From a virus (lineage: Duplodnaviria; Caudoviricetes), in IMG/VR virus record IMGVR_UViG_3300013426_000028, positions 1-64,000 of that record: a stretch of DNA of 64,000 nucleotides; one strand, given 5' to 3'. The translations under genes were made by a program, and so were the position numbers. Position 1 is the stretch's first letter, and every line of letters begins with the position of its first letter. Shown one piece after another: positions 1 to 63,465 of this stretch. Below the pieces are notes generated by a model, which made no database searches, was not told where the DNA came from, and saw only the letters and a list, made by a program, of their open reading frames with translations.

Positions 1-473
1 AAAAATTAGGGATTGTAAACGCTCGAAAAACTCTTAGAAATAAATTTTTGCAAAGCGATTTCGATTATATCATTTTAAATGATGATGATATTTCTATTAT
101 TGGGGATTATAACGAGGGCCAATTATTTTTACAAGAAATAGAGAGAGTAAACGAGCAATGTATTGTTCAAAACGCTACTCTGTTTTCTGGATTTTGTATT
201 AGTAAAAATTTATTTTCTCAAATTGATATTCCTAATTTAGAAGCGGCGAATGGAGAGGGCTTTGAAGATTTTGCTTTTTATAAAATATTATCTTTTCTGA
301 TTAATAAAACTCCCCGAAAAATAAAAACTAAAATTATATTTAGGCATAGTTTTGGAACTTCAACTTGGGGAAATAAAGAATTATTTTTAAAAAGCAAGCA
401 AATGCAAGATCATACTTTAGAATATATAAATAAAGTAATAGAAGAATATAAACAGCAAAATACAAAAGAATAA
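1..473 (+). CDS. GT-A fold (GT2-like) glycosyltransferase, 5' end outside the window
   Basis: Frame is open from nt 3: KLGIVNARKTLRNKFLQSDFDYIILNDDD (G..NAR plus DxD motif), later GFED. Confidence 0.65.
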   Translation, partial: KLGIVNARKTLRNKFLQSDFDYIILNDDDISIIGDYNEGQLFLQEIERVNEQCIVQNATLFSGFCISKNLFSQIDIPNLEAANGEGFEDFAFYKILSFLINKTPRKIKTKIIFRHSFGTSTWGNKELFLKSKQMQDHTLEYINKVIEEYKQQNTKE

Positions 474-46273: not shown

Positions 46274-47180
46274 CCCCTCCCCAGGGGTTTTTCTTTTTTC
46301 ACCCCCCTCTTTTACCCTTTCTTTACCCCCTGGGGGAAACGCGCAGTGAGCCATTGGGTATTGAGCTTGTGAAATAGCCATTGGCGAACGATGAGCGCGT
46401 GGGGGCAAACGCGTGCCACTCCGAGATGACACACTCTGCAAGTCTTGAGAGAAAAAAATGAAAATTTTTATAACTCACACACTTGCGAGAGCTTTTCAAC
46501 GAAAAGTCGAGGCAAAATTGCTTTACTTTCTTTAAGGGGGAATATAAACCGAAGGTTTATATGAAATTCTTTTTACTCTTTTTACTCTTTTCTTTATTTA
46601 TTTCTTTTCTTTTTAATCAACTTTTTTCTTTTCGTTTTTCTTTCTTTTCGGTTTTTTCTCCTTTTTCTTGGGGGACGGTTCTTTAAAAGCAGGCGCGCGT
46701 GACGCACGTGTACGTGTATGCACGTATGTGTACATATACATACATATACACATCACATACACAAAAACTAATGTGCCATTGTCCGCCAGCTTCAAAGCTA
46801 ACTTCAGAACTCTTTAATACTCTTCCTTACCTAACTATTCTAAATATTCGAATACTTCAAGTTACTCAAATTCTTTGATATATTTACTTCAATGTAACTT
46901 CAATGAATCTTTGAACCAACTTCAATATAACTTAATTATTTTGCTTTTAACCTTGCTTAAGTTAAATTATAAATTTTACTCATACTTTTTTTCGGTTCGC
47001 TTCGCTTATTAAAAGGCGTAAGTGCTTATGCCCTTCCGCCAATCTTCCATTTAAAAGTCTTGCTTCCGCAATCCTTTCAAATCCGCAAAGTGTATTTATT
47101 CTTTTTTTGTTTTCTTTTCTGTACTTTGAGTTTATGTAATACCTAAAACTACTTAAAATGAAATATTCATCATTTTTTCT

Positions 47181-47473
47181 CCATTTAATTCAAAGAATCT
47201 CAAGTAAAGCAAGTTCTAATAAGTATTTATTCATTTTTATTGAATTTATTTCTTTATTCTTGATTTAATTCAAGAAAAAAATAGAAGGTTCTTGTGTACG
47301 CGCGTATACATGTATGCGTAACGTATAAAACTCTTATTTTTTAGATTTATTAAACACTCTTTAATTTATTTTCCATTTAATTCAAGAAATTAGGTCTAAA
47401 GTGGCTTAAGACAAGTATTTATTGGTCTGGAGTGTGTTTGGTTAGCTTTTATCCATTCAATTCAAGAAAAAAA
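47181..47473 (+). repeat. Iteron-like direct repeats (CC)ATT(T/C)AATTCAA(A)GAA, 4 copies
   Basis: Copies near 47181, 47263, 47373, 47453. Confidence 0.55.
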
Positions 47474-47635
47474 TTAGTTAAATTTGATTCTGGAGTGTTT
47501 TGAGAGTTATACAAGGGTTTTGATTTATATGATTTAAGCGTTACACTTTGTAACGGTTTGGGTGTAACAGTTTGGTATGTTTTGTTTCACACTTTCGAGG
47601 ATTACTCGTTTATTCATTTGGGTGTTTAGAGAAAA

Positions 47636-47706
47636 TTTTTAAGTAGGATTTAAGCAAGATAAGGTTTTTATTTAAGCCAGATTTTAAGTAGGATTTAAGT
47701 AGGATG
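47636..47706 (+). repeat. Tandem TTTAAGTAGGA-like repeats
   Basis: TTTTAAGTAGGATTTAAG twice plus degenerate units. Confidence 0.55.
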
Positions 47707-47773
47707 TGTATGAGGCAGGTGGGTAGAAATAAAAGGTCGCGTGTATGGGCGCGTGCGCGATTTTTATATAGAA

Positions 47774-47789
47774 CGTTTCACGTGAAACA
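47774..47789. promoter_or_regulatory. parS: parS centromere site (ParB/Spo0J binding)
   Basis: CGTTTCACGTGAAACA is 15/16 to the consensus TGTTTCACGTGAAACA, with a perfect 14-bp palindromic core. Confidence 0.75.
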
Positions 47790-48163
47790 TGCTGGGTCAA
47801 AGAAGAGAGAAGTCTTCTTTTTCTTCGATTACAAGCCTGTTTCCAAGATTTTTTAGAATGATTCTAAAAATAAACAATTGTTAAAATATCAACAAAATAA
47901 GTAAAACTGTTGAAAAAAGATATCGAACACTTTGTTCGGAAACTTAGAAATATCGAACATTTTGTTTGATTACTCAAAAGACGTCTGTGCAAACAAAAAG
48001 ATAACCCCTTTATACCCCCTCAAGATAAAAAAACAAGGGGTTATCCAAGAACCAGTTCATAAACAAGTTTGAGACATTAGGGAATAAAGCTCAAGAAGAA
48101 TAAAAAGAATCAAAACAAAGCTCAAATTAGATCTTAAGAAAATTAATAAACTTGCAAAAAAAC

Positions 48164-49646: not shown

Positions 49647-50146
49647 TTTTGTGCCTGTGGTGTGAATCTGTTTAAATCTGTTTGAATCATTTAGATTCTG
49701 TGTTCATCTGGTGTGTCTCAATAGAGTATGATGATTCATTTTGCAATTAGATAAATTAAGAATCCAGATGATCTAAATAATCTAGATGAATCTGATGAAG
49801 CATCAAGAAAAAAATCTGGCCCTAGAATAAAAAGCTTCCTGCCTCATTAAAAAACGTCGCCCCATCAAACATTCGATTTATTTTCCATTTACATGGAGAA
49901 AAAACAAACTGAATCCCTTCCAGGTATAATTTAAGGGGACTCCGCGTTCTTGTCTGTTATTTAAAGAACTACCTTTAAATAAATCGTCTAAAATCGAAAA
50001 TAACTATATATAAACTCTTAGAAATTCCCAGAATCATTAAATTAATTATATAATAATTAAAAAGAACTAAAAAGAATTAAAAGAATCTTCCCTCCATCAA
50101 AAAAAGTATCCCTCTCAAAAAAAATAAAAAAAGTTTTTAAAACCTA

Positions 50147-50174
50147 TTGACTTATTTTTATATTCCTGTATACT
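50147..50174 (+). promoter_or_regulatory. Promoter with upstream A-tracts and no downstream ORF
   Basis: TTGACT-N16-TATACT followed by the ..AGTGTAA start motif seen at other promoters. Confidence 0.7.
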
Positions 50175-50180
50175 TATTAG

Positions 50181-50980
50181 TGTAAAGGGGGAAAGGAAAT
50201 GAACCTCCGAAGTACCCCTTACAAGTTCTTTGAAAAATCAATATCAGTCCATTATCATTTTGGATAAAAAAGAATTCATCACAGTGACGACGTCATAAAA
50301 GTACTAACTTAAACTGTAAAAAATAATCTGACAGTATAAACGAGGCGTCGGTACCGTGATGAACTCTTTTAAAAGCTAGTACGGAACTTGGCCAAATCCC
50401 GCTGATACTATTAAAATAACATTTATCATGTTTTCTCCAACCTATATTTAAATGAACCTTATCGGTTATTTTAATATCAAGGGAAATTGATGATGCAATG
50501 CAATACGCTATTAACCAAAATAATCAGCATAACTCAGTGAATCCCCAATTCACTTCCCGCACTACTTTCCAAAAGATTCATTCAACCCATCCCCTTAACA
50601 GGGATGCTATGAGGGCTCTGTTTAGAAGATCCAATAGGAACAGTTATTTATATCTACTTATAAATAATTAAACTCCTTATGGTCCCTCTTTAAATGTGCA
50701 AATTTATTAATCCCTTCTTCAGAGCTTTCATAGGGTCCTTGTAAGGCCCAATTTTAGTTTTTATAGATGGACTAGGTAGACAAATTAGGTAGACAAAGAG
50801 GACGCCTGTTTTGGACAGACAGGTTTCCTTGAAGAGCAGAGATCAGAACACCACACCACCTTCTAACCTGAAAGTATTTGATCAGTACCTTTTCTATCTC
50901 TGCTCCTTAAGGCAACTTATTTACCTTAGCTCACACCGTATTCACCACTTTTCCTCCTGGTAGTACGGTGTTTTCGTTTT
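50181..50980 (+). ncRNA. Candidate long (~800 nt) highly structured non-coding RNA
   Basis: Own promoter, boxA-like GTTCTTTGAAAA (50225), at least 7 long helices with G-U pairs on the + strand, terminal hairpin plus T-run, no ORF of 60 aa or more. Confidence 0.65.
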
Positions 50981-51808
50981 CTCTTTATCCTCATCTAATC
51001 GGATCCTTTTTTCTTATTGACACTGTGTCAGTAATATTCTGTGCCCTTCTTTTTCCTCTTTTTTTATTATCTTCCTTCTTCCAGATGCTTGCAAATTGTA
51101 ATCATCTGTTTTTCTCTATTTGCTCCTGTAAGTACAGTTTTTTAATACTTCGTGGAGCAAAAATTGCACTTCAAATTCTGTTTTTACCTTTTCAGGTGCA
51201 AAAAATCTCACCCTCTCGTTAAAAAACAATCGCCCTTATAGCTAATATATTAGCGATTAAGGTTACAAAAGAGGTTTATCGCTAATATTTGAGCGATTCT
51301 TTCACCATCATATAGTATCCCCTGCGAGAGCGCCCTTTTTGTGACACTGTAATGTCACTTTTCTGGATGTTTTCTATCTTTTTTTCTGGTTCTTTTCTGG
51401 ATGATGCATCAATGACATAATTCTGGTATAATTATAACATAATTATGTACCTCGTAGCTATATCATTATAATGATATATTTCACACTATTCTACTCCATA
51501 TACTACACTACCTCCTCTCGTCCATTTCTTTTTTCGCTTATAGGCATACACCAGATTTTTCGCGCCTATAAGGCTGAAAAAATACGGGCGGCAGAAAAAA
51601 GGTGGCACTCCAGTAAAAAAAAGTGGGGCGCCCGTGTAAAAAGTGCCCGCTCGCATAGTTTCCCCTGGCTGCGTAGTTTTACGTCGGTCATTTCCCTTCG
51701 ACGGTTATGGATTGCTTGGGGCTGGTTATAGTATCGCTTGGATTACGGATTTACTTTGCTTGAATAAAAGTCAACTACTTAGACGGCGAGGAATAAAGGA
51801 GTGAACCT

Positions 51809-51886
51809 TTACTTTCGGCCCACTCCAGTCATGCAGCAAAACAAATATACTGCACAAACAATGAAACTTAACATAAGTCCATTCAT
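51809..51886 (-). CDS. 25-aa hydrophobic peptide, type I toxin-like (not in ORF track)
   Basis: MNGLMLSFIVCAVYLFCCMTGVGRK; AAAGGAGGTGA RBS; upstream TTGTAT-N16-TACAAT. Confidence 0.5.
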   Translation of the reverse strand: MNGLMLSFIVCAVYLFCCMTGVGRK

Positions 51887-51942
51887 TATCTACTCACCTC
51901 CTTTCCAATATATTGTAACACATAAACTGTGTAATACAATCA

Positions 51943-52668: not shown

Positions 52669-52775
52669 AAGTTTTCCTCCTAATACTTTTATTTGTTCCT
52701 ATTTGATTAATACCATTATACCACAAGTGTTGTCAGCACACAAGTGGTATAATGATTTTGTTTAATTAATTTGAA

Positions 52776-53042
52776 CTACCATTCACGATAATATTTTGTG
52801 TATGAAGTATTAGGATAAAGCTTAGAATCTTCTGCTTCTTCACATTCGGTAACAGTAATTTCAACATGATGAGTATGACATCTTGTTTCATCTGCCATTA
52901 CTTCATCTACTTTCTTCTTAAGAGCATCGGATACTTTTGAAAAGTTATCCATAGGTTCTGTTACTCTGAACTCAAGAGTTGGTTCGTTCATTTCATCACA
53001 ACTAACAATTTTACAACTTCCAATATAAACAATTTTTCTCAT
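52776..53042 (-). CDS. Hypothetical protein
   Basis: AGGAGG RBS. Confidence 0.6.
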   Translation of the reverse strand: MRKIVYIGSCKIVSCDEMNEPTLEFRVTEPMDNFSKVSDALKKKVDEVMADETRCHTHHVEITVTECEEAEDSKLYPNTSYTKYYREW

Positions 53043-53063
53043 TTTTATTTTTCCTCCTATTGT

Positions 53064-53342
53064 TTATTTATTAAGATATACTTTTTTGTCATTATAGCCT
53101 AGATCTTCAATAATCTCTGGTAAATGTTCTGTTCCGAATCCTAATGATTCATAATTGTTAAACCCTGCGACTTCGTCCATTTGAAGTTGTTCGTGCCATA
53201 CATTAAATATGTGAGCGTGATTGCCCTTGTCACAGACACAACAAGACCAACCTTCTTCTCTTCCCATATATTGTCCTGTCCAGACATCTCCAAATGCATC
53301 TTTTACCTTGTACCAGTGGCCTTTAATAAATTTGCTTTTCAT
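53064..53342 (-). CDS. Hypothetical protein
   Basis: AGGAGG RBS. Confidence 0.6.
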   Translation of the reverse strand: MKSKFIKGHWYKVKDAFGDVWTGQYMGREEGWSCCVCDKGNHAHIFNVWHEQLQMDEVAGFNNYESLGFGTEHLPEIIEDLGYNDKKVYLNK

Positions 53343-53403
53343 AACATATTTCCTCCTTTGTTTTAGTTATGATAGACTGTTCCTATTGAATTTTAAATTT
53401 TAA

Positions 53404-54177
53404 TTATTTAATAATACGAATCTTAAGTTGTTCTGGATATGATATACCTGCTACACTTAATACATCATAACAAATTTCTATGAATGATAAATCTTTATAT
53501 TCTTCATCGAACATACAAGCTCCACCATCATCTTCTTTCAATTTGTTTTTCCATATTTCTATATTCTCTTCTGTTATTTTATCTTGTCTTTCGGGATTAT
53601 TTTCATACACCTCATAATAAGCGTATGATTCATATCCTTCCTCATCATCTTCTTCACTTAAATCTGAAGTTCCTTCACAAATATGAAAAATCCAATGTTC
53701 ATGTTCATAATCATTAGAATCTCCTACAGCTATCCAGAAATCTGTTTTAGTATTTGGACGTCCTTCAATTTTCATCTGAGATAATTTTTTCATATTTTCT
53801 TGTTCTTTATAGACATCATTTATATCCACATTAAATGCTTGATGAGCAATCAATTCAAGCCAATCAATATAATATGTTTGAATATTTTGATTATTTTTAC
53901 ATTCTTCTAAAAGTTCTGCGAATGATTTACTATAAACATCTTGTAAACCATAAATTTCATTTAAGTCATCAAGAATATAATTATCATAATATATTTCTAA
54001 TCTATCTAATACAGCTGCTGTATTATCAAAACGATCCTTTTCGATTTTACCAAGATTAGCACCTTGTAAATCTTCTAAACTGTAATATTGTATTCCTTCT
54101 ACTTCTTCCTGTTTGATTAATTCGAAGTCCATATCTGATAACAACATAGCACAAATTTTTGCATAATTCTTTTTCAT
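53404..54177 (-). CDS. Acidic hypothetical protein
   Basis: AGGAGG RBS; DLQGANLG.I and DGG motifs. Confidence 0.6.
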   Translation of the reverse strand: MKKNYAKICAMLLSDMDFELIKQEEVEGIQYYSLEDLQGANLGKIEKDRFDNTAAVLDRLEIYYDNYILDDLNEIYGLQDVYSKSFAELLEECKNNQNIQTYYIDWLELIAHQAFNVDINDVYKEQENMKKLSQMKIEGRPNTKTDFWIAVGDSNDYEHEHWIFHICEGTSDLSEEDDEEGYESYAYYEVYENNPERQDKITEENIEIWKNKLKEDDGGACMFDEEYKDLSFIEICYDVLSVAGISYPEQLKIRIIK

Positions 54178-54241
54178 ACCTTATTTCCTCCTTTGTATGA
54201 TTTAATAAACGACTGTTCCTATTTAATTTTTAAATTCTTGT

Positions 54242-54379
54242 TTATCTTATATTTAACAATAAATACAAAATTAATGTTAAAAGTACAAGAAAAACTGAAT
54301 ATCCTTCTCTTTTTGCCTGTTTACATATAAAATATATTACAGCACCGAAAAAGACCAATAAGAAAATTGCAACTTCCAT
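54242..54379 (-). CDS. Small two-TM membrane peptide
   Basis: AAGGAGGG RBS before ATG 54379. Confidence 0.5.
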   Translation of the reverse strand: MEVAIFLLVFFGAVIYFICKQAKREGYSVFLVLLTLILYLLLNIR

Positions 54380-54405
54380 ATTGCACGTCCCTCCTTTCTT
54401 TTTAA

Positions 54406-54492
54406 TTATTGAGGTGATAATCCACACCAAAGCACGAAAAACAAAAGTAATAATAAAGCTAAAACTAAATAAGTATAATCTTCATTACTCAT
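54406..54492 (-). CDS. 28-aa single-TM peptide (not in ORF track)
   Basis: AAGGAG RBS; MSNEDYTYLVLALLLLLFFVLWCGLSPQ. Confidence 0.45.
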   Translation of the reverse strand: MSNEDYTYLVLALLLLLFFVLWCGLSPQ

Positions 54493-54513
54493 AATATTTT
54501 CTCCTTTCTTTTA

Positions 54514-55143
54514 TTAATGTTGATGGAAGAAAGTCATTTGACCTAACATCATCTTCCAACAATTTTTACAAGTCTTACAACTTCCTGGACATTGATATCC
54601 GCCTGTTGGTACATTTGCTTTAAATTCAGATGATTTTTTGAATTCGACATATGTAACAGGAAGTAAATATTTATTCTTCACTGTTTTATTATATTCTTCA
54701 TCCCACATACTTAAAACAATTTTAAGATTTACAGGAAGACTTTCAATGCCATGTTTGTCAATCCATTCATTGATTAATTCCCATTTCTTAGTAAATGCTA
54801 AGAATGTTGTTTGAGGACAAGCTAACGCAACTCTGACCATACCGTCTAAATATTGTTCGTCAACTATATCTCCTGATGAATGCCATCTGAAATATTTATA
54901 TGTAACATCGTCATTGTTTAAATATTTAATAACCTCATCAAAGAACGCTACTTTATCTTCATTATATGAATTGTAATTATCCATATGAGATTTTTTAACG
55001 TTTGGATATAAATGAGTTCCTCTACGAGCGTAGCAAAGTTTTGCACAAGGTGCATTTCTTCTACAAGTGATGATTGGTGGAAGATTTAAGGTTGGAACCT
55101 TATCTCCTAATTTACTATTTGATAAACTGATGTGTACTAACAT
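54514..55143 (-). CDS. GP88-family (radical-SAM-related) protein
   Basis: NSKLG, TC....PC...CYA, FRWHSSGD, FTK, C-terminal CPGSC..C..CW. Confidence 0.7.
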   Translation of the reverse strand: MLVHISLSNSKLGDKVPTLNLPPIITCRRNAPCAKLCYARRGTHLYPNVKKSHMDNYNSYNEDKVAFFDEVIKYLNNDDVTYKYFRWHSSGDIVDEQYLDGMVRVALACPQTTFLAFTKKWELINEWIDKHGIESLPVNLKIVLSMWDEEYNKTVKNKYLLPVTYVEFKKSSEFKANVPTGGYQCPGSCKTCKNCWKMMLGQMTFFHQH

Positions 55144-55218
55144 AACATTTTTCCTCCTTATATAAAATTTTGTTATGAATCGACTCGACTGTTCCTATTT
55201 AATTTTTAATTTATATGT

Positions 55219-56043
55219 TTATTCTATTAAAGAATAATACTCTATATGTCCTTCTTTGTCAATAAACTTAATACGATATTTGCTAATATTAACTAATTTT
55301 GTAACTTCTTCTGCAAATGTTCTAAAATCATCTTCTGAATAAGCATAATTTTCAGGCATAAATACATCTCGGTAATATTGATATAATTTTTGATCTTTAG
55401 ATTCATCAGCCTCTATTACATATTTTTTATCATTATTGTCATCATCTTTTTTATCGAATTCACCGTAATTTTCTTCATATTCAAATTGGTCTAAAATATA
55501 ATTTACTCCAAAATAAGAAACATACGCTTCGTGATGTTCTGTGTCAATAGTAATTTCAACATCACCTTCTGACCATGCTTGTGTTTCGTTCATATCTTTA
55601 TCAAAGATGCCAATTAAACCATCATTTCTGTCATAAGTGAATTCTCCATCTTCAGCCATTCTATTTTCAATAAGTTTTAATGCTTCGTCAGATAACCCGA
55701 TTTCTATTTTAAGATAATTATAAAAATTCTGACAAATAGGTCCTCGTAAATTTTCTGGAATATGATTTCCATTATGTAAATTATTGTCTTCACTAAATTG
55801 TTGCCAATATCCTTCATAAGTGATATTGGTTCTTTTAGCAAATCTCAAGAAAGCTTCTATGGCAATCTGTTTAGCATTTGCTTTTGGAAATTTTTCTATC
55901 ATCTTATTCATTAAATATAATATAATAAGAGTATTAACCGCAGCACTGTCTGTATAGGCTGACCAGTGTTGATACATATTTGCAACTCTTTCTTCTGTTT
56001 TTCCATCATAAACTGTAATAACTAATCTTTGTCCCATAATCAT
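55219..56043 (-). CDS. Hypothetical phage protein
   Basis: MGQRL...Y.HWSAYT, RNDGLI. Confidence 0.6.
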   Translation of the reverse strand: MIMGQRLVITVYDGKTEERVANMYQHWSAYTDSAAVNTLIILYLMNKMIEKFPKANAKQIAIEAFLRFAKRTNITYEGYWQQFSEDNNLHNGNHIPENLRGPICQNFYNYLKIEIGLSDEALKLIENRMAEDGEFTYDRNDGLIGIFDKDMNETQAWSEGDVEITIDTEHHEAYVSYFGVNYILDQFEYEENYGEFDKKDDDNNDKKYVIEADESKDQKLYQYYRDVFMPENYAYSEDDFRTFAEEVTKLVNISKYRIKFIDKEGHIEYYSLIE

Positions 56044-56109
56044 TTTCCTCTTTTCTTTTAAATTTTTGGGAAGCCTACATGGCTTTGTTCCTATTTAATT
56101 TTAACATTT

Positions 56110-56409
56110 TTATTTCAATAGTTCAAGAATTCTTTGCTTATATTCTGATTCTTTACACCATTGATTTGGCCCACCACGAAAATCTGTCAACGATTCTGCT
56201 GTTCTGTACATTGCTAAACCATTTACTGGTTCTGTTGTGATGTAAACAATCTTTCCATTATCTTCGTTTTGAATAAAGCCAATACATCCAACTTTTTGAT
56301 AGCAAGTAACATCATCACGCAAATGAAATGTTAGATTTTTACAATCTCTAAACATATATTTGATAGCACGTGTAGATTTTCCTTTGTTTGGTAATAAATA
56401 ATTTTTCAT
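56110..56409 (-). CDS. Hypothetical phage protein
   Basis: GC.GFI...YRTA...DF.GG.N. Confidence 0.6.
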   Translation of the reverse strand: MKNYLLPNKGKSTRAIKYMFRDCKNLTFHLRDDVTCYQKVGCIGFIQNEDNGKIVYITTEPVNGLAMYRTAESLTDFRGGPNQWCKESEYKQRILELLK

Positions 56410-56411
56410 CT

Positions 56412-57326
56412 TTATTTTCCTCCTTTCTTTTCTATTTCAACTTGGTTTAAAATTTCTTCTAAATCAATTTGATTCAATAAATAAGGGCCTTTTCTTAATT
56501 TAACATAAGATTTTAAATCCTTTATTACAGGTAAATTATACGTTGCTTCACCTATATTTTGTACTTCTTCGAAGTGTCTTATTGTGGCTGTATCAACACT
56601 TATATTAATACCACTTTCGTATGCTTCAAAATGATATAATTTATTTTTATAAACGAATAAGATGAACGCACATCCCCAAGCCCAATGAGAAGGTGAAGAA
56701 ATATCTCGAATTAAAGTCATATTATTTATTGTATTTTCGGTAAAATAACATTTGAGTCTATTTCTTTTATATTCGCTATATGCTTCTTGATTTATCATTT
56801 TTTCTTTTTGATAATTATAATCAATTATCAAACTTAAATATTTATTCAGTAATTCAAGAGTTTCTTTGACATCTGACAACATTTGACTATATGAATTTAA
56901 AGGAAAATAATCAAACGAAAAATCTTTTAAATTAATAAATATTTCGTTATGTTTTGGAGCAGGTGTTCTGATATATAGCCAAAATCCTTCTTTATTGTGT
57001 CTTTCTATTGTTGCCATATAAATAGATTCTAAAATAGGATATTGTTCTATTAAACGAGAAGTTAATCTAAAATCTATAATTTGATTAGTTTCTATTTGCT
57101 TTTTTAATTTTTGTACTTGACCACTATTAATAATTTGCTCTTCTAATTTCATAATTTCTTTTGCTAATATTTGATTAGTTTTAAGTACTTCTAACTCGCT
57201 TTGTTCAAAATCATTGTATTTTAGGTCTATGTTTTTGATTGCTTCGCATTTTTCTATTTCGCAAGTTTCTTTAAAGTGTGTTATTTCTTCATAAGTTTGT
57301 TTTGTAATTTTATCATATAAATTCAT
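56412..57326 (-). CDS. Hypothetical protein
   Basis: AGGAGG RBS. Confidence 0.6.
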   Translation of the reverse strand: MNLYDKITKQTYEEITHFKETCEIEKCEAIKNIDLKYNDFEQSELEVLKTNQILAKEIMKLEEQIINSGQVQKLKKQIETNQIIDFRLTSRLIEQYPILESIYMATIERHNKEGFWLYIRTPAPKHNEIFINLKDFSFDYFPLNSYSQMLSDVKETLELLNKYLSLIIDYNYQKEKMINQEAYSEYKRNRLKCYFTENTINNMTLIRDISSPSHWAWGCAFILFVYKNKLYHFEAYESGINISVDTATIRHFEEVQNIGEATYNLPVIKDLKSYVKLRKGPYLLNQIDLEEILNQVEIEKKGGK

Positions 57327-57350
57327 AACTTTTTCCTCCTTTCTTTAGAA

Positions 57351-57638
57351 CTAGTCAGCATAACCTGCCGCTAGTTCTAATAAATACCATTTATCCATTT
57401 GATCAATCTCTTCCCAGGATTTTTCTCTTCTTAAAGCGTGTAACATTTCAACATAGCAATCAGGATTAAGATTATTAGAATCTTTTAATCCTAAATAACT
57501 TGCGTGACTGCATAATTGTTCAAATTCTTCGTCATCAATACTGTTATCAAATAAACATTGTACTGAATTAGCAATGGTAATATCCCATACACTAATATTC
57601 TTTTCGTTTAAGACTTCTAATTTTTGTTTGTAATTCAT
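57351..57638 (-). CDS. Hypothetical protein
   Basis: AGGAGG RBS. Confidence 0.6.
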   Translation of the reverse strand: MNYKQKLEVLNEKNISVWDITIANSVQCLFDNSIDDEEFEQLCSHASYLGLKDSNNLNPDCYVEMLHALRREKSWEEIDQMDKWYLLELAAGYAD

Positions 57639-57709
57639 AATTATTTTCCTCCTATATATGAATTTAACGACTGTTCCTATTGATTTATGTATTAAAATGA
57701 ATAATAAAA

Positions 57710-58171
57710 TTATTTACTTAATAAGCGACGTATTCTTCCTATTACTTGCGGTATCAATCTATCATTGATATATGCAGCAGAATATTTATTTTGAACATCA
57801 TCTATTTTTGCTTTTTCTGTAATGTCAGAATATCCTTGTTCAAAAAGAAGCGAAACTTGTCTTAATTTATTATACGTTGATATGTAGTCATATAATTCAT
57901 CAAGTTCTTCTTCTGTTAAAGGTGTTGCTTCCATTGTTTTTCTAAATTCTGTTTGTGTAAATAATCCTTGAGAATAATAATCAGGATATCCTTCAGGACG
58001 ACCTAATATGACCATATTGAGATAGTCCCAATGTGAAGATTTTTCATCTCGTCCTTTAACAAATTGAGGTTCTCTTAACCAATATCTGCGTCCAATTTTA
58101 TTACGACCTAATAAATAATGATTGACTCCTAAATAAACTTTTGTTTGTTTTAACATTTTTCTTTTACGCAT
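57710..58171 (-). CDS. Hypothetical protein, paralog of 59787..60275
   Basis: YLLG..K.G..YWL..P, GYS..TE.AKID, IN..L.P. Confidence 0.65.
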   Translation of the reverse strand: MRKRKMLKQTKVYLGVNHYLLGRNKIGRRYWLREPQFVKGRDEKSSHWDYLNMVILGRPEGYPDYYSQGLFTQTEFRKTMEATPLTEEELDELYDYISTYNKLRQVSLLFEQGYSDITEKAKIDDVQNKYSAAYINDRLIPQVIGRIRRLLSK

Positions 58172-58207
58172 ATTTTTTTCCTCCTATTTAATTAATTAAA
58201 AGAGAGA

Positions 58208-58681
58208 TTATCCGAAGACAATCTCTCCAAATAAAGCCCATTGGATAATGAAATCTCCACTTTCAGCATCAGCATAACAACCAAGATAATCTTCAATATC
58301 ATCATATTTAGAGTGGGACATTTCTTGTCCAAGACCTTCTAACACTCTATTGAGAGTCAACTTCCAAGGATCTCCTTCGACTCCTTCTTCATTATTTAAA
58401 TCTGTTACACCTTCTTCTTCTGCATCTTCAAATTCAATATATCCTCCATTCCATAGAATATAAGCAGCTATTTCTACAGTAGAACAATATTCATCTTCAG
58501 GATGTTCTGCTTTATATTTCTTTTCCCATTTAGTCCAATTTTCTGAAGCGTTGTCAAGCATTGCCCAATAACCAATTCCACCTTCAAGTGCAATAGCCAT
58601 AACATCACACAAATTGTCTTGTGTAATTTCAACTGTTTTTGTAATAGTGATTTTTTTAGTTTCTACGTTTTTCATAATCAT
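58208..58681 (-). CDS. Hypothetical phage protein
   Basis: ALEGGIGYW...DA...D.IIQ.ALFGEIVFG. Confidence 0.65.
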   Translation of the reverse strand: MIMKNVETKKITITKTVEITQDNLCDVMAIALEGGIGYWAMLDNASENWTKWEKKYKAEHPEDEYCSTVEIAAYILWNGGYIEFEDAEEEGVTDLNNEEGVEGDPWKLTLNRVLEGLGQEMSHSKYDDIEDYLGCYADAESGDFIIQWALFGEIVFG

Positions 58682-58727
58682 TTTTCCTCGATTCTTTGAT
58701 TTTTGTTCCTATTTAGTTTTAATGTTC

Positions 58728-59000
58728 CTATTTAATTTGTTCTTTTAGTTTTTTGATTTCTCTTTGCATACGATCCATATTGTCAACTACACCGTTTGTG
58801 TATTCAACAATTTTTCTTTCGTTATATTCTTCTAAATCTTCATTACGGCAATAAGGACAAACTCCTCTTGTACCATAATGATAAGCGTGATATGGATCAT
58901 AAAGACCATATTCATCTTCGTAACAGAATCGTTCTTCTTCAAGATCATCTTCTGTCATAAAATGTTCACAATTTGGACAAAAATATATCATTTTGTTCAC
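58728..59000 (-). CDS. Zinc-ribbon protein
   Basis: CPNC...CPYC; GTG start. Confidence 0.6.
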   Translation of the reverse strand: MNKMIYFCPNCEHFMTEDDLEEERFCYEDEYGLYDPYHAYHYGTRGVCPYCRNEDLEEYNERKIVEYTNGVVDNMDRMQREIKKLKEQIK

Positions 59001-59009
59001 CGCCTTTCT

Positions 59010-59468
59010 TTATTTAACAGCAAGAATATCTTTAATATTTTTATTAAAGACTTCTGGAGTTTCTTTCTTAACCCATTGAGAAGATTGAGTAACTCCCATA
59101 GCTTCTTCTTTTGTTATTGGATTACCATCAAAATAATAACCAATAACTTTTGGACGATGAAGGAAGATTTTTGATGTTGTCATTCGGATATATGTTTCAC
59201 CTTTATTTTCAATCATCCATCTATTTTTCCATTCTCCCCAAGGCAAGACTTCTTTAATTTCACCTACCATTCCAATTGCTTGTCTTTTTTCAATAACAGA
59301 TTTAATATTAGAATATCTAACACCAAATCTTACTACAGATTGTACAACTTTTGTAATAACGTGTCCTTTAAAATTTTTGTTTGGAGTAATGTTTGTTTGA
59401 TATGTTACTTGAACATAAGCTCCTTGATGTTTGTTTGAAATAATATTTAATAATTCTTGTTTTTCCAT
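59010..59468 (-). CDS. Hypothetical phage protein
   Basis: R.GV.YSNI, LPWGEW; own promoter TTTACA-N17-TATAAT near 59497..59525. Confidence 0.6.
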   Translation of the reverse strand: MEKQELLNIISNKHQGAYVQVTYQTNITPNKNFKGHVITKVVQSVVRFGVRYSNIKSVIEKRQAIGMVGEIKEVLPWGEWKNRWMIENKGETYIRMTTSKIFLHRPKVIGYYFDGNPITKEEAMGVTQSSQWVKKETPEVFNKNIKDILAVK

Positions 59469-59532
59469 GATAATTTTTCCTCTCTTTCTATATATATTAT
59501 ATCATGTTTAATAATGTTTGTAAAGACAAAGA

Positions 59533-59790
59533 CTATCCTAAATAGATAGCCTTGTCTTTGTCGTCTAAAATCATTAAGTCGTGATTTATGGCTTCATAAT
59601 ATTCTCTGGTTGAAGAACCTTCTTCTTTTTCAATACTTTTAATTGTTTCTCCTGAATAATATAAAGCATGATATCCGTTGGCTTCTTCATCATCTGTGAC
59701 AAATATCACATAATCGCCGTGACCTTTTCGAATTTCTTCTCTAAGATATTTATATAAATCTTCGACTGTTAACGCTCCACATTTTGTCAT
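59533..59790 (-). CDS. Hypothetical protein
   Basis: DDEE.NGYH; AGGAGGTG RBS. Confidence 0.6.
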   Translation of the reverse strand: MTKCGALTVEDLYKYLREEIRKGHGDYVIFVTDDEEANGYHALYYSGETIKSIEKEEGSSTREYYEAINHDLMILDDKDKAIYLG

Positions 59791-60275
59791 TTTCTTTCAC
59801 CTCCTAACAAATTGTCAATACGTTCGAATATTGCTGGTAACAAAGTTTTATTAATACAATTCGCAAAATCTTCGTTTTTTAATACATCAATTTTTGCTGC
59901 TTCTGTTTGATGACTATAACCTCGATGTAATATTTCTGCTGTTGTTATTAAATTATAACACGACATCATATAATCAATTAATTGATATTTTTCATTTTCA
60001 TTTAAAGTAGTTTCTACAAAAAACTTATCAAATGAGTATATGGCGAAGCCTGTCGTATTATTTAAAAATAAATAATTAAAATGAGTATAAAAATCAATCT
60101 CTCTGCTTAATTCAGAATTACGATTGTTAGATAAAATATCTACACAGCCACAATTCCAATACTCATGCCAATCGCACACCCATTCAGGTGCTTGTAGCCA
60201 ATATTTTTTGCCTTCTTTATCCTTTCCTAATAAATAAAACTTTTTTCCACGCCAATAAATTACTTTCTTTTTCAT
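59787..60275 (-). CDS. Hypothetical protein, paralog of 57710..58171
   Basis: GGAGGTG RBS before ATG 60275; shared motifs. Confidence 0.65.
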   Translation of the reverse strand: MKKKVIYWRGKKFYLLGKDKEGKKYWLQAPEWVCDWHEYWNCGCVDILSNNRNSELSREIDFYTHFNYLFLNNTTGFAIYSFDKFFVETTLNENEKYQLIDYMMSCYNLITTAEILHRGYSHQTEAAKIDVLKNEDFANCINKTLLPAIFERIDNLLGGERK

Positions 60276-60294
60276 AATTTTCACCTCCTTCCTT

Positions 60295-62736
60295 TTATCC
60301 TCTACAACAAAGAGCACCATATTGAGAATGAATTGATGTTTCATCAACATTTCCTGTTTCTTGTGCCCATTGTAATAAAGCTTGCACAATTTCAGCATCA
60401 GGATTACTATTACATAATCCGTGAACTTGTCTTATAGAAAACTTATTATCAATAGAACCATTTTGAGAAAGTTCTATTGTAAAATATGGTTCAGACAAAT
60501 TACTATTTTTTCTGAAAAACAATATTGCTGTATGTTTGTTTGCAAACGTTTCTTGATAAGAGCTTACACAATGATGTAAGATTTTTCCTTCTGTGGATAA
60601 ATCTTCTACTTTTTCAGGAACTAAAATAGTAAATTCATCATTGCTCCAAGCAAATTTCTTTTGTAATATTTCCTTCCAAGGTTTATATCTTTCATTTAAT
60701 AGTTTGGATTGGTCAGCACTGATTATTTGTTTAAAAGCATCATAATTTTCCGACATAAAATTATGAAGATAATGAATTTTCATTTTAAGATCTGATTGTA
60801 GAATTGCTTGTTTTAAACAATAAACAGAAATTTGTGGAAAATGTTTTGTAACACATTCACAAACATATGACAAATTATTATTTTTAAAATCTTCTTTTGT
60901 TGTTGGAAAATCAATTGGAATTAATTTAATTTTTTCCTTCATTTGATAATAATCATATAATTCTGATAATTTTGCCACGTCGGATGCACTAATTTTATTT
61001 AATATTCGAATAATTTCAGAATCTGAAAATCCTTGTTCTGGAATTATAATGTTATAAAATGTCATAATATTAAGTATCAAATCTTTTACATATAAATGAT
61101 GACCTTTGTCACAAATCAGATTTTTAAACATTTCTAACGTTATATATTTACCATATTTTTTAGCAATTTGTTTTTTAGATAATGTTTTTCTATTTGAAGC
61201 AATTCTACAATATCCATAATTATAACAAGAAGGATAATTTGTTATGGACATGTTTCCTTTTAAAATATTAATCAAATAATAAAATAATTCTGCATGAAAA
61301 TCAGTACAAACATAATTTTTATCGAAAATTGTTGCATCTTTTATAAAATCTTCGTAATTTTTCTTACTTAAATAACATTGTTCATACATTTTAGTCTTTT
61401 GTATATCACAAGCAGTATCAAATAATAATTGTGTCACTCGCGACGCTGTACGAGAGTTAGCAATATTTGTTGAATAAAACAATTTTCTTGCCTCTATAAA
61501 TTCATTAACGTATGTAGAACCATAATGCTTAATAAAACTTTCATATGTCATATCTTTATAGTATAAAGGATTAAACAAAGGCTCTAATATTTTTTGATAT
61601 ATTAATTCTCCAATAGTAAAATCTTTATTATAATAAGCATAAGAATAATGACCTTTTTTACAATAAGAGTTATTAATGCTATACGAAGACAAAATTTCTG
61701 CAAAACTATTATTTGGAAACATTGAATTAAAAATGTAATTTAAACCATGAATTTCTTGAATCTCAGAAATATGTTCTTGAATACAATTTATAATTTGTTG
61801 AAAACTCTGTACATCTGAATAATTAACACTATTGAAAGTTTGATATTTATTGGTTTTATCAATTGTTAATTCTCCTTGTGGAGAAGCGAGAAAACATTCG
61901 CAGTTTCCTGTCTTTTTGTCATATACGTGTAATATTATATTTCTCCAATAGTTTTTATTATACATTAAAAGATACACATTATCTTGATCAGATTCAATAT
62001 GTAATATATTGTTTGATTCAATCAATTCTTTTATTTTGTTTTGAAACATGTCTTGGTATGTTAACAATTTTGATTTTTGAATTGTTTTATGTGCAAATTT
62101 CGTTTTGTTTGGATGTTTAATACATTCAATAAATGTTGCAATAGGAAACATTTCATTATAATCTACAGAGTGATTTATTTGCCACCAATTTTTTAATACA
62201 GTTAAATCAAAACCTTGTTCCTTCAATATTTTTGTTGAAAAAGGTGATAAACGTCCAAATGGATATTTATCACCTTGATAAGAATCTATTGTATTTATAT
62301 TTACAAATCTAATATCTTGGGTATTGGATGCATTACTAATTTTCCAAGATCTTTCTTTTGGTTCAACAAAACGTTTGTTTGAATCATACATTTCCCAATC
62401 ATTTGTAATATAAAACATAGGTTCATTACGATATAAATAAGGAAATGCCTTTCTATTTGTAACATAGGAGTTAAACAAATATATGCCAACACCCTTTTTA
62501 TTATTAATAGTACATTTTTCAATGAAAATATAGTTTTTAGAAGCATTTTTAATAGGAAATAATAAAGCATAATCTTTAAAATCTTCTAATACTAGTTGTC
62601 CTTGTTTATCATAAATTTTTCCTGCTGGTGTTACTGTATACATTGGTAATTGGCATAATTGTTCGTGTGTTTCAACTTCTACCTCTCTTAAATTAGGCAT
62701 GTTGTTAAATGTGTTTACTTTAATTTCTTTATTCAT
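60295..62736 (-). CDS. Large protein with C-terminal PcfJ-like domain
   Basis: P....DL..EG..LHHCV.SY, I.F.RK....PYFTIE, Q..G..N. Confidence 0.7.
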   Translation of the reverse strand: MNKEIKVNTFNNMPNLREVEVETHEQLCQLPMYTVTPAGKIYDKQGQLVLEDFKDYALLFPIKNASKNYIFIEKCTINNKKGVGIYLFNSYVTNRKAFPYLYRNEPMFYITNDWEMYDSNKRFVEPKERSWKISNASNTQDIRFVNINTIDSYQGDKYPFGRLSPFSTKILKEQGFDLTVLKNWWQINHSVDYNEMFPIATFIECIKHPNKTKFAHKTIQKSKLLTYQDMFQNKIKELIESNNILHIESDQDNVYLLMYNKNYWRNIILHVYDKKTGNCECFLASPQGELTIDKTNKYQTFNSVNYSDVQSFQQIINCIQEHISEIQEIHGLNYIFNSMFPNNSFAEILSSYSINNSYCKKGHYSYAYYNKDFTIGELIYQKILEPLFNPLYYKDMTYESFIKHYGSTYVNEFIEARKLFYSTNIANSRTASRVTQLLFDTACDIQKTKMYEQCYLSKKNYEDFIKDATIFDKNYVCTDFHAELFYYLINILKGNMSITNYPSCYNYGYCRIASNRKTLSKKQIAKKYGKYITLEMFKNLICDKGHHLYVKDLILNIMTFYNIIIPEQGFSDSEIIRILNKISASDVAKLSELYDYYQMKEKIKLIPIDFPTTKEDFKNNNLSYVCECVTKHFPQISVYCLKQAILQSDLKMKIHYLHNFMSENYDAFKQIISADQSKLLNERYKPWKEILQKKFAWSNDEFTILVPEKVEDLSTEGKILHHCVSSYQETFANKHTAILFFRKNSNLSEPYFTIELSQNGSIDNKFSIRQVHGLCNSNPDAEIVQALLQWAQETGNVDETSIHSQYGALCCRG

Positions 62737-62832
62737 AATTTTTCCTCCAATTTTTCCTTTTTCAAGGGATAAGAATATTTTTATGGAGAAAATATTCAAA
62801 ACCTTGTTCCTATTTAATTTTCAATTTAAAGA

Positions 62833-63399
62833 TTAATAATCACAGTCTTCGTCTTCATCATAATCGTCATAATCATCTTCATCATAATCTTCGCAACATT
62901 CCATTCTTTCCTCCTGAAGAGCTTTTTCAACTCTTTCTTTTAATATGACATCTAAATCTTCTTGAGATAATTTAGATTTTAGATCATTACAATTTGCAAT
63001 TTCTTTACCTTCGTGGTCATAAGCAATTTTACCTTTGACTAGAATTTCAATTCCATTATCTAACTTAAAGCTATGATCTGGAATCATTTCTGCTTCTACG
63101 AATTGTTGAGCAATATTACATTGCATATAGACTTGAGACATATTCATTCCCATTGAAGCATAAAGATTTAACATCTTTTCTTTATCTTCTGCGGAGCTTG
63201 CAAATCCAATTAACATTTCTGTTCTAGGATCATAAACTGGAATTAATTCACCTGCATCAAGCATTTTAATAGTATCTAAAATACCTTTTTGAGGCATTTC
63301 TTCATATTTTTTTAATAAAGCTTCTTTAGCAGCTTTCTTTTCTGCTTCTTTTCTTTCTTCTGCTGCTCTTTTTAAATTTTCTAATACTGTGTTTTTCAT
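62833..63399 (-). CDS. Hypothetical protein with acidic tail
   Basis: AGGAGG RBS. Confidence 0.6.
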   Translation of the reverse strand: MKNTVLENLKRAAEERKEAEKKAAKEALLKKYEEMPQKGILDTIKMLDAGELIPVYDPRTEMLIGFASSAEDKEKMLNLYASMGMNMSQVYMQCNIAQQFVEAEMIPDHSFKLDNGIEILVKGKIAYDHEGKEIANCNDLKSKLSQEDLDVILKERVEKALQEERMECCEDYDEDDYDDYDEDEDCDY

Positions 63400-63465
63400 A
63401 ACTGTTTTCCTCCTATAATATAAATGTTATGATGTTCCTATTGAGTTATTGTTCCTATTTAACGA

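What the first reader, a model, noticed from the sequence alone, without database searches (positions are those of the whole stretch)
50147..50980. Candidate novel ~800-nt structured phage RNA transcribed like an rRNA operon
Seen: a consensus promoter with upstream A-tracts and no downstream ORF; 5' hairpin 50181-90/50215-23; then GTTCTTTGAAAA (50225). Long helices: 50268-82/50356-70 (extending inward), 50409-20/50465-76 (12 bp perfect), CATCCC/GGGATG, 50607-20/50720-33, 50644-52/50659-67, 50834-43/50896-905 (10 bp perfect, extendable) and terminal 50934-40/50964-70 plus T-run. There is also a TAGGTAGACAAA direct repeat. Most mismatches read as G-U on the + strand, which supports an RNA of this sense. 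Established: GTTCTTTGAAAA is the Firmicute rrn boxA antitermination signal, and large ornate RNAs (GOLLD, ROOL) occur in Firmicute phages. I found no tmRNA, RNase P or rRNA signature. Inference: an abundant, antiterminated large ncRNA, possibly a new class.
Basis: partly seen in the sequence, partly recalled or inferred. Interest (0 to 1): 0.85.

Follow-up and report, generated by a model that had tools for sequence, protein, structure and literature searches.

The report
rRNA-style large phage non-coding RNA
An uncultured gut phage related to SPbeta carries a gene-free unit of about 800 bases that looks like a gene for a large folded RNA made with the host's ribosomal-RNA anti-termination signal; one loop is complementary to the ribosome-binding sites of the neighbouring gene block, but only one relative is known and no transcript data exist.

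Summary
Window 50117-50977 is a discrete, ORF-free unit on the + strand. It has a promoter from a seven-member phage promoter family, then a hairpin, then a boxA. The boxA 12-mer is identical to the 16S-leader and 16S-23S-spacer boxA of host-clade Bacilli, and 20 of 22 bases match with the downstream flank. Long hairpins follow, then a terminator after which conservation stops.

No Rfam family matches, even at E<=10. I found one homolog, in a 138.7-kb contig of a gut Bacilli MAG (84-90% identity). Its stem bases are invariant, its large indels fall at hairpin tips, and three pairs change compensatorily. "No ORF" is not exact: there is a 22-codon mini-ORF, frameshifted in the homolog.

New points:
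- Three ROOL RNAs, found through a boxA search, begin at the same 12-mer.
- The terminator loop complements AGGAGGAAAA, the RBS of 10 genes in the convergent block.
- The RNA carries one sense copy of that block's AATAGGAACA leader box.

Best reading: a boxA-led large phage ncRNA of a new family, possibly a silencer of that block's translation. Expression is untested. This scan has noted boxA-led large phage RNAs in at least 40 other genomes.

The parts
50117..50146 (+). A-tract UP-like element upstream of the promoter
   Evidence: Read from the sequence. It is 100% identical in the homolog, whereas the DNA just upstream carries deletions. Similar A/T-rich tracts precede the sister promoters.
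50147..50174 (+). Sigma-A-type promoter (TTGACT, 16 nt, TATACT). Predicted start near 50180.
   Evidence: It belongs to a + strand promoter family (7189, 21412, 30396, 38039, 42216, 43831) that shares the stretch from the -35 to AGTGTAA. The start site is inferred, not measured.
50182..50222 (+). Leader hairpin (boxB-like position). Its stem covers the SD-like GGGGG.
   Evidence: -14 kcal/mol. By itself its z-score is only -1.8. The homolog changes U-A to U.G, which is tolerated on the + strand only.
50199..50267 (+). 22-codon mini-ORF, probably a relic of the promoter-leader cassette
   Evidence: a 1-nt deletion in the homolog changes the peptide after codon 8. Nucleotides are conserved, the peptide is not.
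50225..50246 (+). boxA (12-mer 50225-36) plus conserved flank AAUCAAUAUCA
   Evidence: The 12-mer is identical to the rrn leader and spacer boxA in L094, L071, L073, L082 and L084. 20 of 22 bases match the spacer version. The 12-mer is invariant in the homolog; the flank has one change, A to G at 50246.
50268..50370 (+). Long hairpin (23 bp) with a variable tip
   Evidence: Both arms are invariant. The homolog has 5-nt and roughly 98-nt insertions at the tip, which still folds as one hairpin. Tip helix 50314-17 / 50331-34 has 2 compensatory pairs.
50372..50568 (+). Middle domain closed by an 11-bp helix (50372-84 / 50557-68). Includes hairpin 50536-54 with a CCCC loop.
Evidence: Consensus fold of the two sequences. 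The closing helix is invariant, so it is untested by covariation.
50589..50749 (+). 3' domain: CATCCC/GGGATG hairpin, 14-bp helix 50607-20 / 50720-33, hairpin 50733-49
   Evidence: Hairpin 50733-49 keeps pairing through three changes (G-C to A-U, U.G to U-A). One change at 50610 breaks a pair on the + strand.
50633..50642 (+). Sense copy of the AATAGGAACA leader box of the convergent gene block
   Evidence: this is the only + strand copy in the record, against 11-12 copies before - strand genes. The homolog has TATAGGAACA.
50798..50830 (+). Hairpin with conserved stem and variable loop
   Evidence: four substitutions, all in the loop.
50823..50916 (+). Long hairpin (21-nt arms) with a variable tip
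   Evidence: There is a 27-nt insertion at the tip in the homolog. The stem extension is kept with a G.U, which favours the + strand (z -5.1 against -3.0 in the homolog).
50933..50987 (+). Intrinsic terminator: stem 50933-47 / 50958-71, 10-nt loop, T-run
   Evidence: z -5.5. It is invariant in the homolog, and identity collapses right after 50977.
50949..50958 (+). UUUUCCUCCU in the terminator loop, complementary to the RBS AGGAGGAAAA
   Evidence: Unpaired probability of the loop is 1.0. Its complement is the RBS of 10 - strand genes and occurs 0 times on the + strand. The homolog phage shows the same pattern.

Best explanation
Window 50147-50977 is a gene for a non-coding RNA of about 800 nt in an SPbeta-like gut phage.

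How it is made. Host RNA polymerase starts at a strong sigma-A-type promoter with an UP element. The nascent leader forms a hairpin and then exposes a boxA identical to the host's rRNA boxA. By analogy with rrn operons, NusB-S10 with NusA and NusG then convert the polymerase into a Rho-resistant complex that also chaperones RNA folding. This carries it through about 700 untranslated nucleotides, which fold into a chain of long hairpin domains. Transcription ends at an intrinsic terminator.

What it most likely does (inference). It acts in trans on the convergent block of small - strand genes. The 10-nt terminator loop pairs with their shared ribosome-binding site AGGAGGAAAA, with 9-10 bp against the 6 bp that 16S rRNA can form, and so lowers their translation. 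The sense copy of their AATAGGAACA leader box may give the RNA the same partner or start signal as those messages.

Status of each step. Shown: the anatomy, the boxA identity, the conservation limits and the motif links. Inferred: transcription, Nus recruitment and the silencing role.

My odds:
- Real + strand RNA gene: about 0.75.
- boxA functional: about 0.65.
- Anti-SD silencing as the main job: about 0.35.
For: - Promoter family membership.
- boxA 12-mer identical to the rrn leader and spacer of host-clade genomes, each time 2-8 nt after a hairpin as here; 20 of 22 bases match with the flank.
- Three ROOL RNAs from the same kind of hosts and phages start at the same 12-mer, so large phage RNAs there do use this leader.
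- No ORF under four genetic codes. Seven of the eight indels between the homologs are not multiples of three.
- The unit's boundaries coincide with the boundaries of conservation.
- Stems are invariant, tips are variable with large insertions, and there are 3 compensatory pairs plus several one-sided changes tolerated on the + strand.
- Fold z-score is -8.6 on + against -5.1 on -.
- An unbiased k-mer scan picks out only two RNA 10-mers against the - strand block: the anti-RBS loop and the sense leader box. Neither occurs in the + strand block.
- The pattern repeats in the homolog phage.
- AGGAGGAAAA is about 25 times denser in the - strand block than in host-like genomes.
Against: - No transcript evidence of any kind.
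- Only two sequences, so most helices are invariant and untested.
- Local hairpins fold equally well on both strands, and one change (50610) favours the - strand.
- The homolog's overall fold z-score is modest: -3.6 on the + strand, against -2.5 on the - strand.
- An SD and ATG follow the promoter, so a short translated leader cannot be excluded.
- The anti-SD loop and its target RBS are both invariant between the two phages, so there is no covariation between them. A duplex-energy scan without accessibility did not separate - strand from + strand genes.
- An 800-nt body is far more than a 10-nt seed needs.
Confidence: 0.5

Rival explanations
1. It is the same boxA-led RNA gene, but its job resembles that of ROOL or GOLLD. 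It would be a stable, abundant, self-assembling or scaffold RNA of unknown function, and the anti-RBS loop and leader box would be incidental.
For: - Size, phage location and own promoter and terminator fit.
- Three ROOLs share the boxA start.
- This phage and its homolog carry no ROOL or GOLLD in the parts scanned, so this RNA could stand in for one.
- ROOL and GOLLD are phage RNAs that form cages and have no known function (PMC12286853, PMC5737381).
Against: - No ROOL or GOLLD model match, even at E<=10.
- No closing stem between boxA and the 3' end.
- No tRNA genes nearby.
- The architecture is a string of local hairpins with variable tips, not a multi-junction pseudoknotted core.
- By my composition estimate each motif link has a chance expectation of about 0.002 in 800 nt (for the counts).
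Confidence: 0.2
2. The act of transcription matters, not the RNA. A strong, antiterminated convergent unit would act as a buffer or roadblock between the + and - strand gene blocks, or as an antisense partner for read-through - strand transcripts.
For: - The unit sits exactly between convergent blocks.
- boxA would make the polymerase hard to dislodge.
- No - strand terminator of good quality lies between 51943 and 50980, apart from weak candidates.
Against: - This does not explain invariant stem bases with compensatory tips.
- It does not explain the conserved terminator loop sequence or the sense leader box.
- About 960 nt, including a probable toxin-antitoxin module, separates the unit from the last - strand gene.
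Confidence: 0.1
3. It is a DNA-level element, such as a replication origin, a packaging site or a recombination site, whose inverted repeats act as DNA hairpins or protein sites.
For: - Inverted repeats fold about equally on both strands.
- Phased A-tracts and short repeats lie upstream at 49809-50120.
Against: - The promoter, boxA and terminator are all oriented and ordered as a transcription unit.
- A much better origin candidate, with iterons and 97-99% conservation, lies at 46.3-47.6 kb.
- There are no repeated protein-site words inside the body.
Confidence: 0.05
4. It is a decaying remnant, for example a former gene behind a duplicated promoter cassette, with chance hairpins and no present function.
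For: - The promoter cassette brings an SD and an ATG that now open only a 22-codon ORF.
- Overall identity with the homolog is no higher than in the flanking genes.
Against: - Blocks of 50-100 nt are 100% identical next to fast-changing tips.
- Conservation ends exactly at the terminator.
- boxA matches exactly.
- Fold z-score is -8.6.
- The two motif links to the - strand block are specific.
Confidence: 0.08

Closest known systems
ROOL RNA (Rfam RF03087; Weinberg et al. 2017, PMC5737381; Cousin et al. 2017, PMC5643018; cryo-EM cage, PMC12286853)
   Same: - A large (about 0.6-0.8 kb) non-coding RNA encoded by phages of low-GC Firmicutes, with its own promoter.
- Three ROOLs I met (L075, L133, L163) begin at the same boxA 12-mer. 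One shares 20 of 21 bases with this leader.
   Different: - No model match at E<=10, and no sequence similarity beyond boxA.
- In ROOL, boxA is the 5' strand of a closing stem with the 3' end. Here there is no such partner.
- No tRNA island.
- I found those ROOLs by searching for boxA, so their share among all ROOLs is not measured here.
GOLLD RNA (Rfam RF01998)
   Same: A phage or prophage RNA of 800 nt or more, with a variable 5' part, of unknown function (PMC12286853).
   Different: No model match, no tRNA context, and different helices.
rrn operon leader and 16S-23S spacer antitermination element (hairpin + boxA; NusB-S10, NusA, NusG; PMC4807359, PMC10250234, PMC8632103)
   Same: - Identical boxA 12-mer, with 20 of 22 bases matching the spacer.
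- A hairpin 2 nt upstream.
- A strong promoter with A-tracts.
- An untranslated structured product.
   Different: - What follows is not rRNA.
- There is no leader-trailer processing helix.
- Factor binding is untested.
Phage lambda nut sites (boxA-boxB with N protein)
   Same: A phage transcript that uses a host-type boxA to modify the polymerase.
   Different: - In lambda, boxA precedes boxB and needs the phage N protein to express downstream protein genes.
- Here the order is hairpin then boxA, as in rrn.
- The unit ends at its own terminator with no gene behind it.
Firmicute regulatory RNAs that pair C-rich loops with Shine-Dalgarno sequences (S. aureus RNAIII, RsaE/RoxS; from my own knowledge)
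   Same: An unpaired pyrimidine-rich hairpin loop (UUUUCCUCC) is complementary to the RBS of a defined gene set. The loop lies in the terminator hairpin, as in several such sRNAs.
   Different: - It is four to eight times longer than typical sRNAs.
- It is boxA-led and phage-encoded.
- Its targets are a phage gene block.
- There are no experimental data.

Membership tests
ROOL (RF03087) | Covariance-model score at or above the gathering score (99.1 bits) | tested here: not met
   No hit at gathering. No hit at E<=10 on 2.4 kb, nor on the two homologs together. True ROOLs scored 154-279 bits with the same tool.
ROOL (RF03087) | Closing stem between the 5' end and the 3' end | tested here: not met
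   ROOLs L075, L133 and L163 pair the boxA stretch with a 3' complement. No conserved partner exists here: the best candidate is deleted in the homolog.
ROOL / GOLLD | Phage or prophage location, often beside tRNA islands | tested here: inconclusive
   The phage location is met. There is no tRNA in the 64-kb window.
GOLLD (RF01998), OLE, raiA, HEARO, all other Rfam 15 families | Covariance-model match | tested here: not met
   HEARO, Pistol and Twister-P5 occur elsewhere in the record, so the tool does find RNAs in this phage.
rrn-type antitermination leader | boxA sequence equal to that of the host's rRNA operons | tested here: met
   The 12-mer is identical in the 16S leader and spacer of G003 (L094) and in the spacers of L071, L073, L082 and L084. 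20 of 22 bases match with the flank.
rrn-type antitermination leader | Hairpin shortly upstream of boxA, downstream of a strong promoter | tested here: met
   The hairpin ends 2 nt before boxA, and the promoter lies 50 nt upstream. rrn copies show a hairpin 2-8 nt before boxA.
rrn-type antitermination leader | NusB-S10 binding and Rho-resistant elongation | not testable with these tools
   Needs binding and transcription assays.
Anti-SD regulatory RNA | Accessible loop complementary to the target RBS | tested here: met
   Loop unpaired probability is 1.0. The 10-mer complement is the RBS of 10 - strand genes and is absent from the + strand block.
Anti-SD regulatory RNA | Repression of target translation | not testable with these tools
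   A duplex-energy scan without accessibility was uninformative.
Type I antitoxin / cis-antisense RNA | Overlap with the toxin message | tested here: not met
   The toxin-like ORF lies at 51809-51886 (-), about 830 nt beyond the terminator, with its own candidate antisense promoter.
Protein-coding gene | Open frame kept between homologs | tested here: not met
   No long ORF under four codes. Indels of 1, 1, 2, 5, 22 and about 98 nt occur between the homologs. The mini-ORF is frameshifted.

The most novel reading that the evidence does not exclude
The phage makes an 'rRNA impostor'. The RNA would be transcribed with the ribosomal-RNA promoter style and Nus-factor machinery, and would display a longer version of the 16S anti-Shine-Dalgarno in an open loop. 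Once it accumulates, it would out-compete ribosomes at the shared start sites of a whole block of about ten phage genes and switch that block off together. That would be a temporal translational switch run by a single large RNA. The sense copy of the block's leader box would tie the RNA to the same factor or polymerase that serves those genes.
Probability: 0.2. Interest if true: 0.85.

Novelty: new variant of a known kind. Interest (0 to 1): 0.62.

Why it matters
Large structured phage RNAs such as ROOL and GOLLD are abundant, form RNA-only cages and still have no known function. This unit adds a separate family to that group.

Together with the three ROOLs that start at the same signal, it points to a shared way of making such RNAs: borrowing the host's rRNA anti-termination system. 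I did not find that link in the ROOL papers I read (PMC5737381, PMC5643018, PMC12286853).

Unlike ROOL, this RNA offers a concrete, testable handle on function. One loop is complementary to the ribosome-binding site of a defined set of phage genes, and the RNA carries one copy of their leader box. If that holds, it would be an example of a phage timing the translation of a whole gene block with one RNA.

Tried and rejected
HOMOLOG SEARCHES
- blastn against the INPHARED phage collection found only a 39-nt promoter-like match.
- Protein-seeded scans of IMG/VR with both neighbouring genes, the cca-like gene and an alignment of 13 neighbour homologs found nothing.
- The JGI metagenome scan gave one short contig (L041), which ends at about 50073, before the RNA.
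- The GTDB scan gave the only homolog, L057.
- Exact-word scans of IMG/VR with an 18-mer of the body and a 20-mer of the leader gave 0 hits.
- A promoter-plus-boxA pattern gave 39 chance hits, none homologous.
- blastn of the RNA against about 1,100 Bacilli genomes (order, relatives and class of the MAG) found only that MAG.
- Five large phage records that carry boxA sites have no homolog.

TOOLS THAT DID NOT ANSWER
- The genome search with the ROOL family failed three times, so the share of ROOLs with boxA was not measured.

IDEAS REJECTED
- Alternative genetic code.
- ROOL or GOLLD membership.
- A long-range pairing of the leader with 50763-75. That stretch is deleted in the homolog.
- A - strand RNA. 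There is no conserved - strand promoter or terminator.

UNINFORMATIVE
- A duplex-energy comparison of - strand against + strand gene start regions gave means of -20.1 and -19.6 kcal/mol.
- A boxA site in phage L112 leads a protein gene rather than an RNA.

Full report
WHERE IT SITS

The window is part of a 95.6-kb IMG/VR virus record with about 30% G+C. Its DNA polymerase is 42% identical to YorL of Bacillus phage SPbeta, and PHROG matches give a DnaB-type helicase and related replication genes.

Genes run on the + strand up to 49625 and on the - strand from 51943 onward. The finding lies in the 2.3-kb gap between these convergent blocks. That gap has no long open frame under code 11, code 4, TAG=Q or TAA=Q. 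It has no tRNA or tmRNA. It has no Rfam match at the gathering scores or at E<=10.

THE OBSERVATION

The promoter (TTGACT, 16 nt, TATACT at 50147-74) is real. It belongs to a family of seven + strand promoters that are nearly identical from the -35 through AGTGTAA.

In the six sister copies, an SD and the start codon of a gene follow this cassette. Here the cassette is followed by GGGGGAAAGG and an ATG at 50199, which opens only 22 codons. So "no downstream ORF" is not exact.

In the only homolog, a 1-nt deletion changes the peptide after codon 8, while the nucleotides stay 96% identical. I read the mini-ORF as a relic of the cassette, not as a gene.

The named helices are in the sequence. The whole unit folds far better than shuffles: z -8.6 on the + strand and -5.1 on the - strand. 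The strongest local elements are:
- Hairpin 50268-50370 (z -6.3).
- Hairpin 50823-50916 (z -4.5).
- The terminator hairpin 50933-71 (z -5.5).

In a 200-nt sliding scan these windows stand out from the coding DNA around them. Other non-coding stretches at 46.2-47.2 kb and 51.0-51.2 kb stand out too.

boxA

GTTCTTTGAAAA occurs once in the window. 46 of 61 carry the 12-mer, about twice as often as a reversed control, and often near contig ends.

Rfam placed the sampled copies as follows:
- In the 16S-23S spacer of four genomes.
- In both the 16S leader and the spacer of G003.
- Before the 5S gene in one genome.

Each rrn copy follows a hairpin by 2-8 nt. The phage leader has the same layout, with a hairpin, then AA, then boxA. 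With the flank it matches the spacer version in 20 of 22 bases. The boxA identification is therefore confirmed by sequence. Factor binding remains an inference from what is established for rrn operons (PMC4807359, PMC10250234, PMC8632103).

THE HOMOLOG

Searches of phage, virome, metagenome and genome collections gave one relative. It is a 138.7-kb contig of an uncultured Bacilli MAG from a Hadza gut sample (L057). It is 84-90% identical across the unit. About 1,100 Bacilli genomes searched held no other copy.

The comparison gives these results:
- **Boundaries.** Identity is 100% from the A-tracts at 50117 through the leader. It collapses right after the terminator's T-run at 50977. The conserved unit is therefore the predicted transcription unit.
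- **Stems.** The stem bases of the long hairpins are invariant.
- **Tips.** The tips change fast and hold the large insertions. The tip of 50268/50370 gains 5 nt and about 98 nt and still folds as one hairpin. The tip of 50823/50916 gains 27 nt.
- **Compensation.** Three pairs change on both sides: 50314/34, 50315/33 and 50735/47.
- **One-sided changes.** Five keep a pair only on the + strand: 50221, 50390, 50746, 50919 and the extension of 50823/50916. One (50610) keeps a pair only on the - strand.
- **Indels.** They are 1, 1, 2, 5, 22 and about 98 nt long, which excludes coding.

Against the structure:
- The 12-bp helix 50409/50476 loses three pairs.
- Helix 50644/50667 keeps six pairs.
- The direct repeat is single-copy in the homolog.
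- When I take the minimum-energy fold of the window sequence alone, substitutions hit paired and unpaired positions almost equally, with 26 pairs broken and 13 kept.

With two sequences, the fold is supported only for a core set of helices.

STRAND

Local hairpins fold equally well on both strands. By hand I count 5 G.U against 3 A.C in the three longest helices. The strand call rests on four things:
- The ordered promoter, leader, boxA and terminator.
- The one-sided changes listed above.
- The global z-scores.
- The lack of a conserved - strand promoter or terminator.

LINK TO ROOL

While checking boxA, I found that a ROOL RNA in a host-clade genome (L075, 193.6 bits) begins exactly at the 12-mer, after a promoter and a hairpin. 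A boxA-plus-flank scan of IMG/VR then turned up two more:
- One in a complete 142.6-kb phage (L133, 279 bits, amid tRNAs).
- One in a 115.9-kb phage (L163, 153.9 bits).

In these ROOLs, boxA is the 5' strand of the closing stem. They were found through boxA, so they do not measure how common this is. My attempts to sample ROOLs independently failed. Notes from other agents of this scan say about half of ROOL lineages do this. I could not check that.

The RNA studied here shares only the boxA stretch with ROOL and has no closing stem. Neither this phage record nor the parts of the homolog's contig that were scanned carry ROOL or GOLLD. It is therefore not a ROOL, but it is made the same way.

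LINKS TO THE CONVERGENT BLOCK

I compared every 8- to 10-mer of the RNA, in sense and antisense, with the - strand and + strand gene blocks. Only two 10-mers stand out.

- **UUUUCCUCCU (50949-58).** It fills the 10-nt terminator loop, which has an unpaired probability of 1.0. It is the exact complement of AGGAGGAAAA. That word is the RBS of 10 - strand genes and does not occur on the + strand.
- **AAUAGGAACA (50633-42).** It is a sense copy of the box that precedes 11-12 - strand genes, and it is the only + strand copy in the record.

From base composition I estimate that each would be expected about 0.002 times in 800 nt. The homolog phage shows the same pattern. AGGAGGAAAA is about 25 times denser in this block than in host-like genomes.

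The loop can form 9-10 pairs with these start sites, where 16S rRNA can form six. That fits a trans-acting translational silencer. However, the loop and its targets are invariant between the two phages. A crude duplex scan did not discriminate between the two blocks. An 800-nt body is unexplained by this role alone.

The box could mark a shared protein partner. It could also be an internal start for a shorter 3' RNA if, as another agent proposed, it is a start signal for a phage polymerase.

VERDICT

The stretch is most likely a real gene for a large, boxA-led phage RNA of a family that Rfam does not list, known so far from two phages. Its production mechanism is well supported by sequence. 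Its fold is partly supported. Its function is an inference, and its expression is untested.

This scan has flagged boxA-led large phage RNAs in at least 40 other genomes. None resembles this one in sequence.

Noticed in passing
window 51809-51886 (-), with 51400-51940 around it: A 25-residue hydrophobic ORF (MNGLMLSFIVCAVYLFCCMTGVGRK) follows a strong SD. Both substitutions in the homolog are synonymous. A TGgTATAAT promoter at 51424-32 faces it on the + strand. This looks like a type I toxin-antitoxin module, of the kind SPbeta-type prophages carry.
   Followed up: partly
window 46300-48100: An ORF-free stretch that is 97-99% identical to the homolog over 46400-46800 and 47000-47600, the best-conserved DNA around. 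It holds a long pyrimidine tract, an alternating purine-pyrimidine run (46690-46760), four CCATTTAATTCAAGAAA-like iterons (47187-47470), TAAGTAGGATTTAAG repeats and ATATCGAACA repeats. It is a candidate replication origin or other DNA-level site.
   Followed up: partly
window 51016-51033, 51236-51298, 51341-51358: Conserved palindrome TGACAC-T-GTGTCA, a related GTGACAC..GTCAC hairpin, and two 23-nt direct repeats (GCTAATAT.T.AGCGATT). These are possible operator sites. The 51000-51200 window folds with z -7.1.
   Followed up: no
L075 1503-2043; L133 3981-4577; L163 2226-2837: Three ROOL RNAs start exactly at the rRNA-type boxA GTTCTTTGAAAA. In L163 and L133 the 3' end carries its complement, so boxA forms the foot of the closing stem. 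The ROOL papers I read do not mention this.
   Followed up: partly
window 52681-63414 (-) and record 65958, 72530: Ten - strand genes share the exact RBS AGGAGGAAAA, and 12 share the upstream box (A)ATAGGAACA. Neither word occurs before + strand genes.
   Followed up: partly
record 71482-71547, 72668-72717, 76551-76765 (beyond the window; L213): Rfam finds a Pistol ribozyme, a Twister-P5 ribozyme and a HEARO (IscB guide) RNA on the - strand of the same phage record.
   Followed up: no
L112 11300-11740: A distant SPbeta-like phage (132 kb) has a hairpin plus GTTCTTTGAAAAC about 370 nt upstream of a protein gene. Here boxA seems to head a coding operon rather than an RNA gene.
   Followed up: partly
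window 49809-50120: Five to six A-run plus C-rich words (AAAAAA..CCC) are spaced 18-20 nt apart upstream of the promoter. They are partly deleted in the homolog. Possibly curved DNA or protein sites.
   Followed up: no
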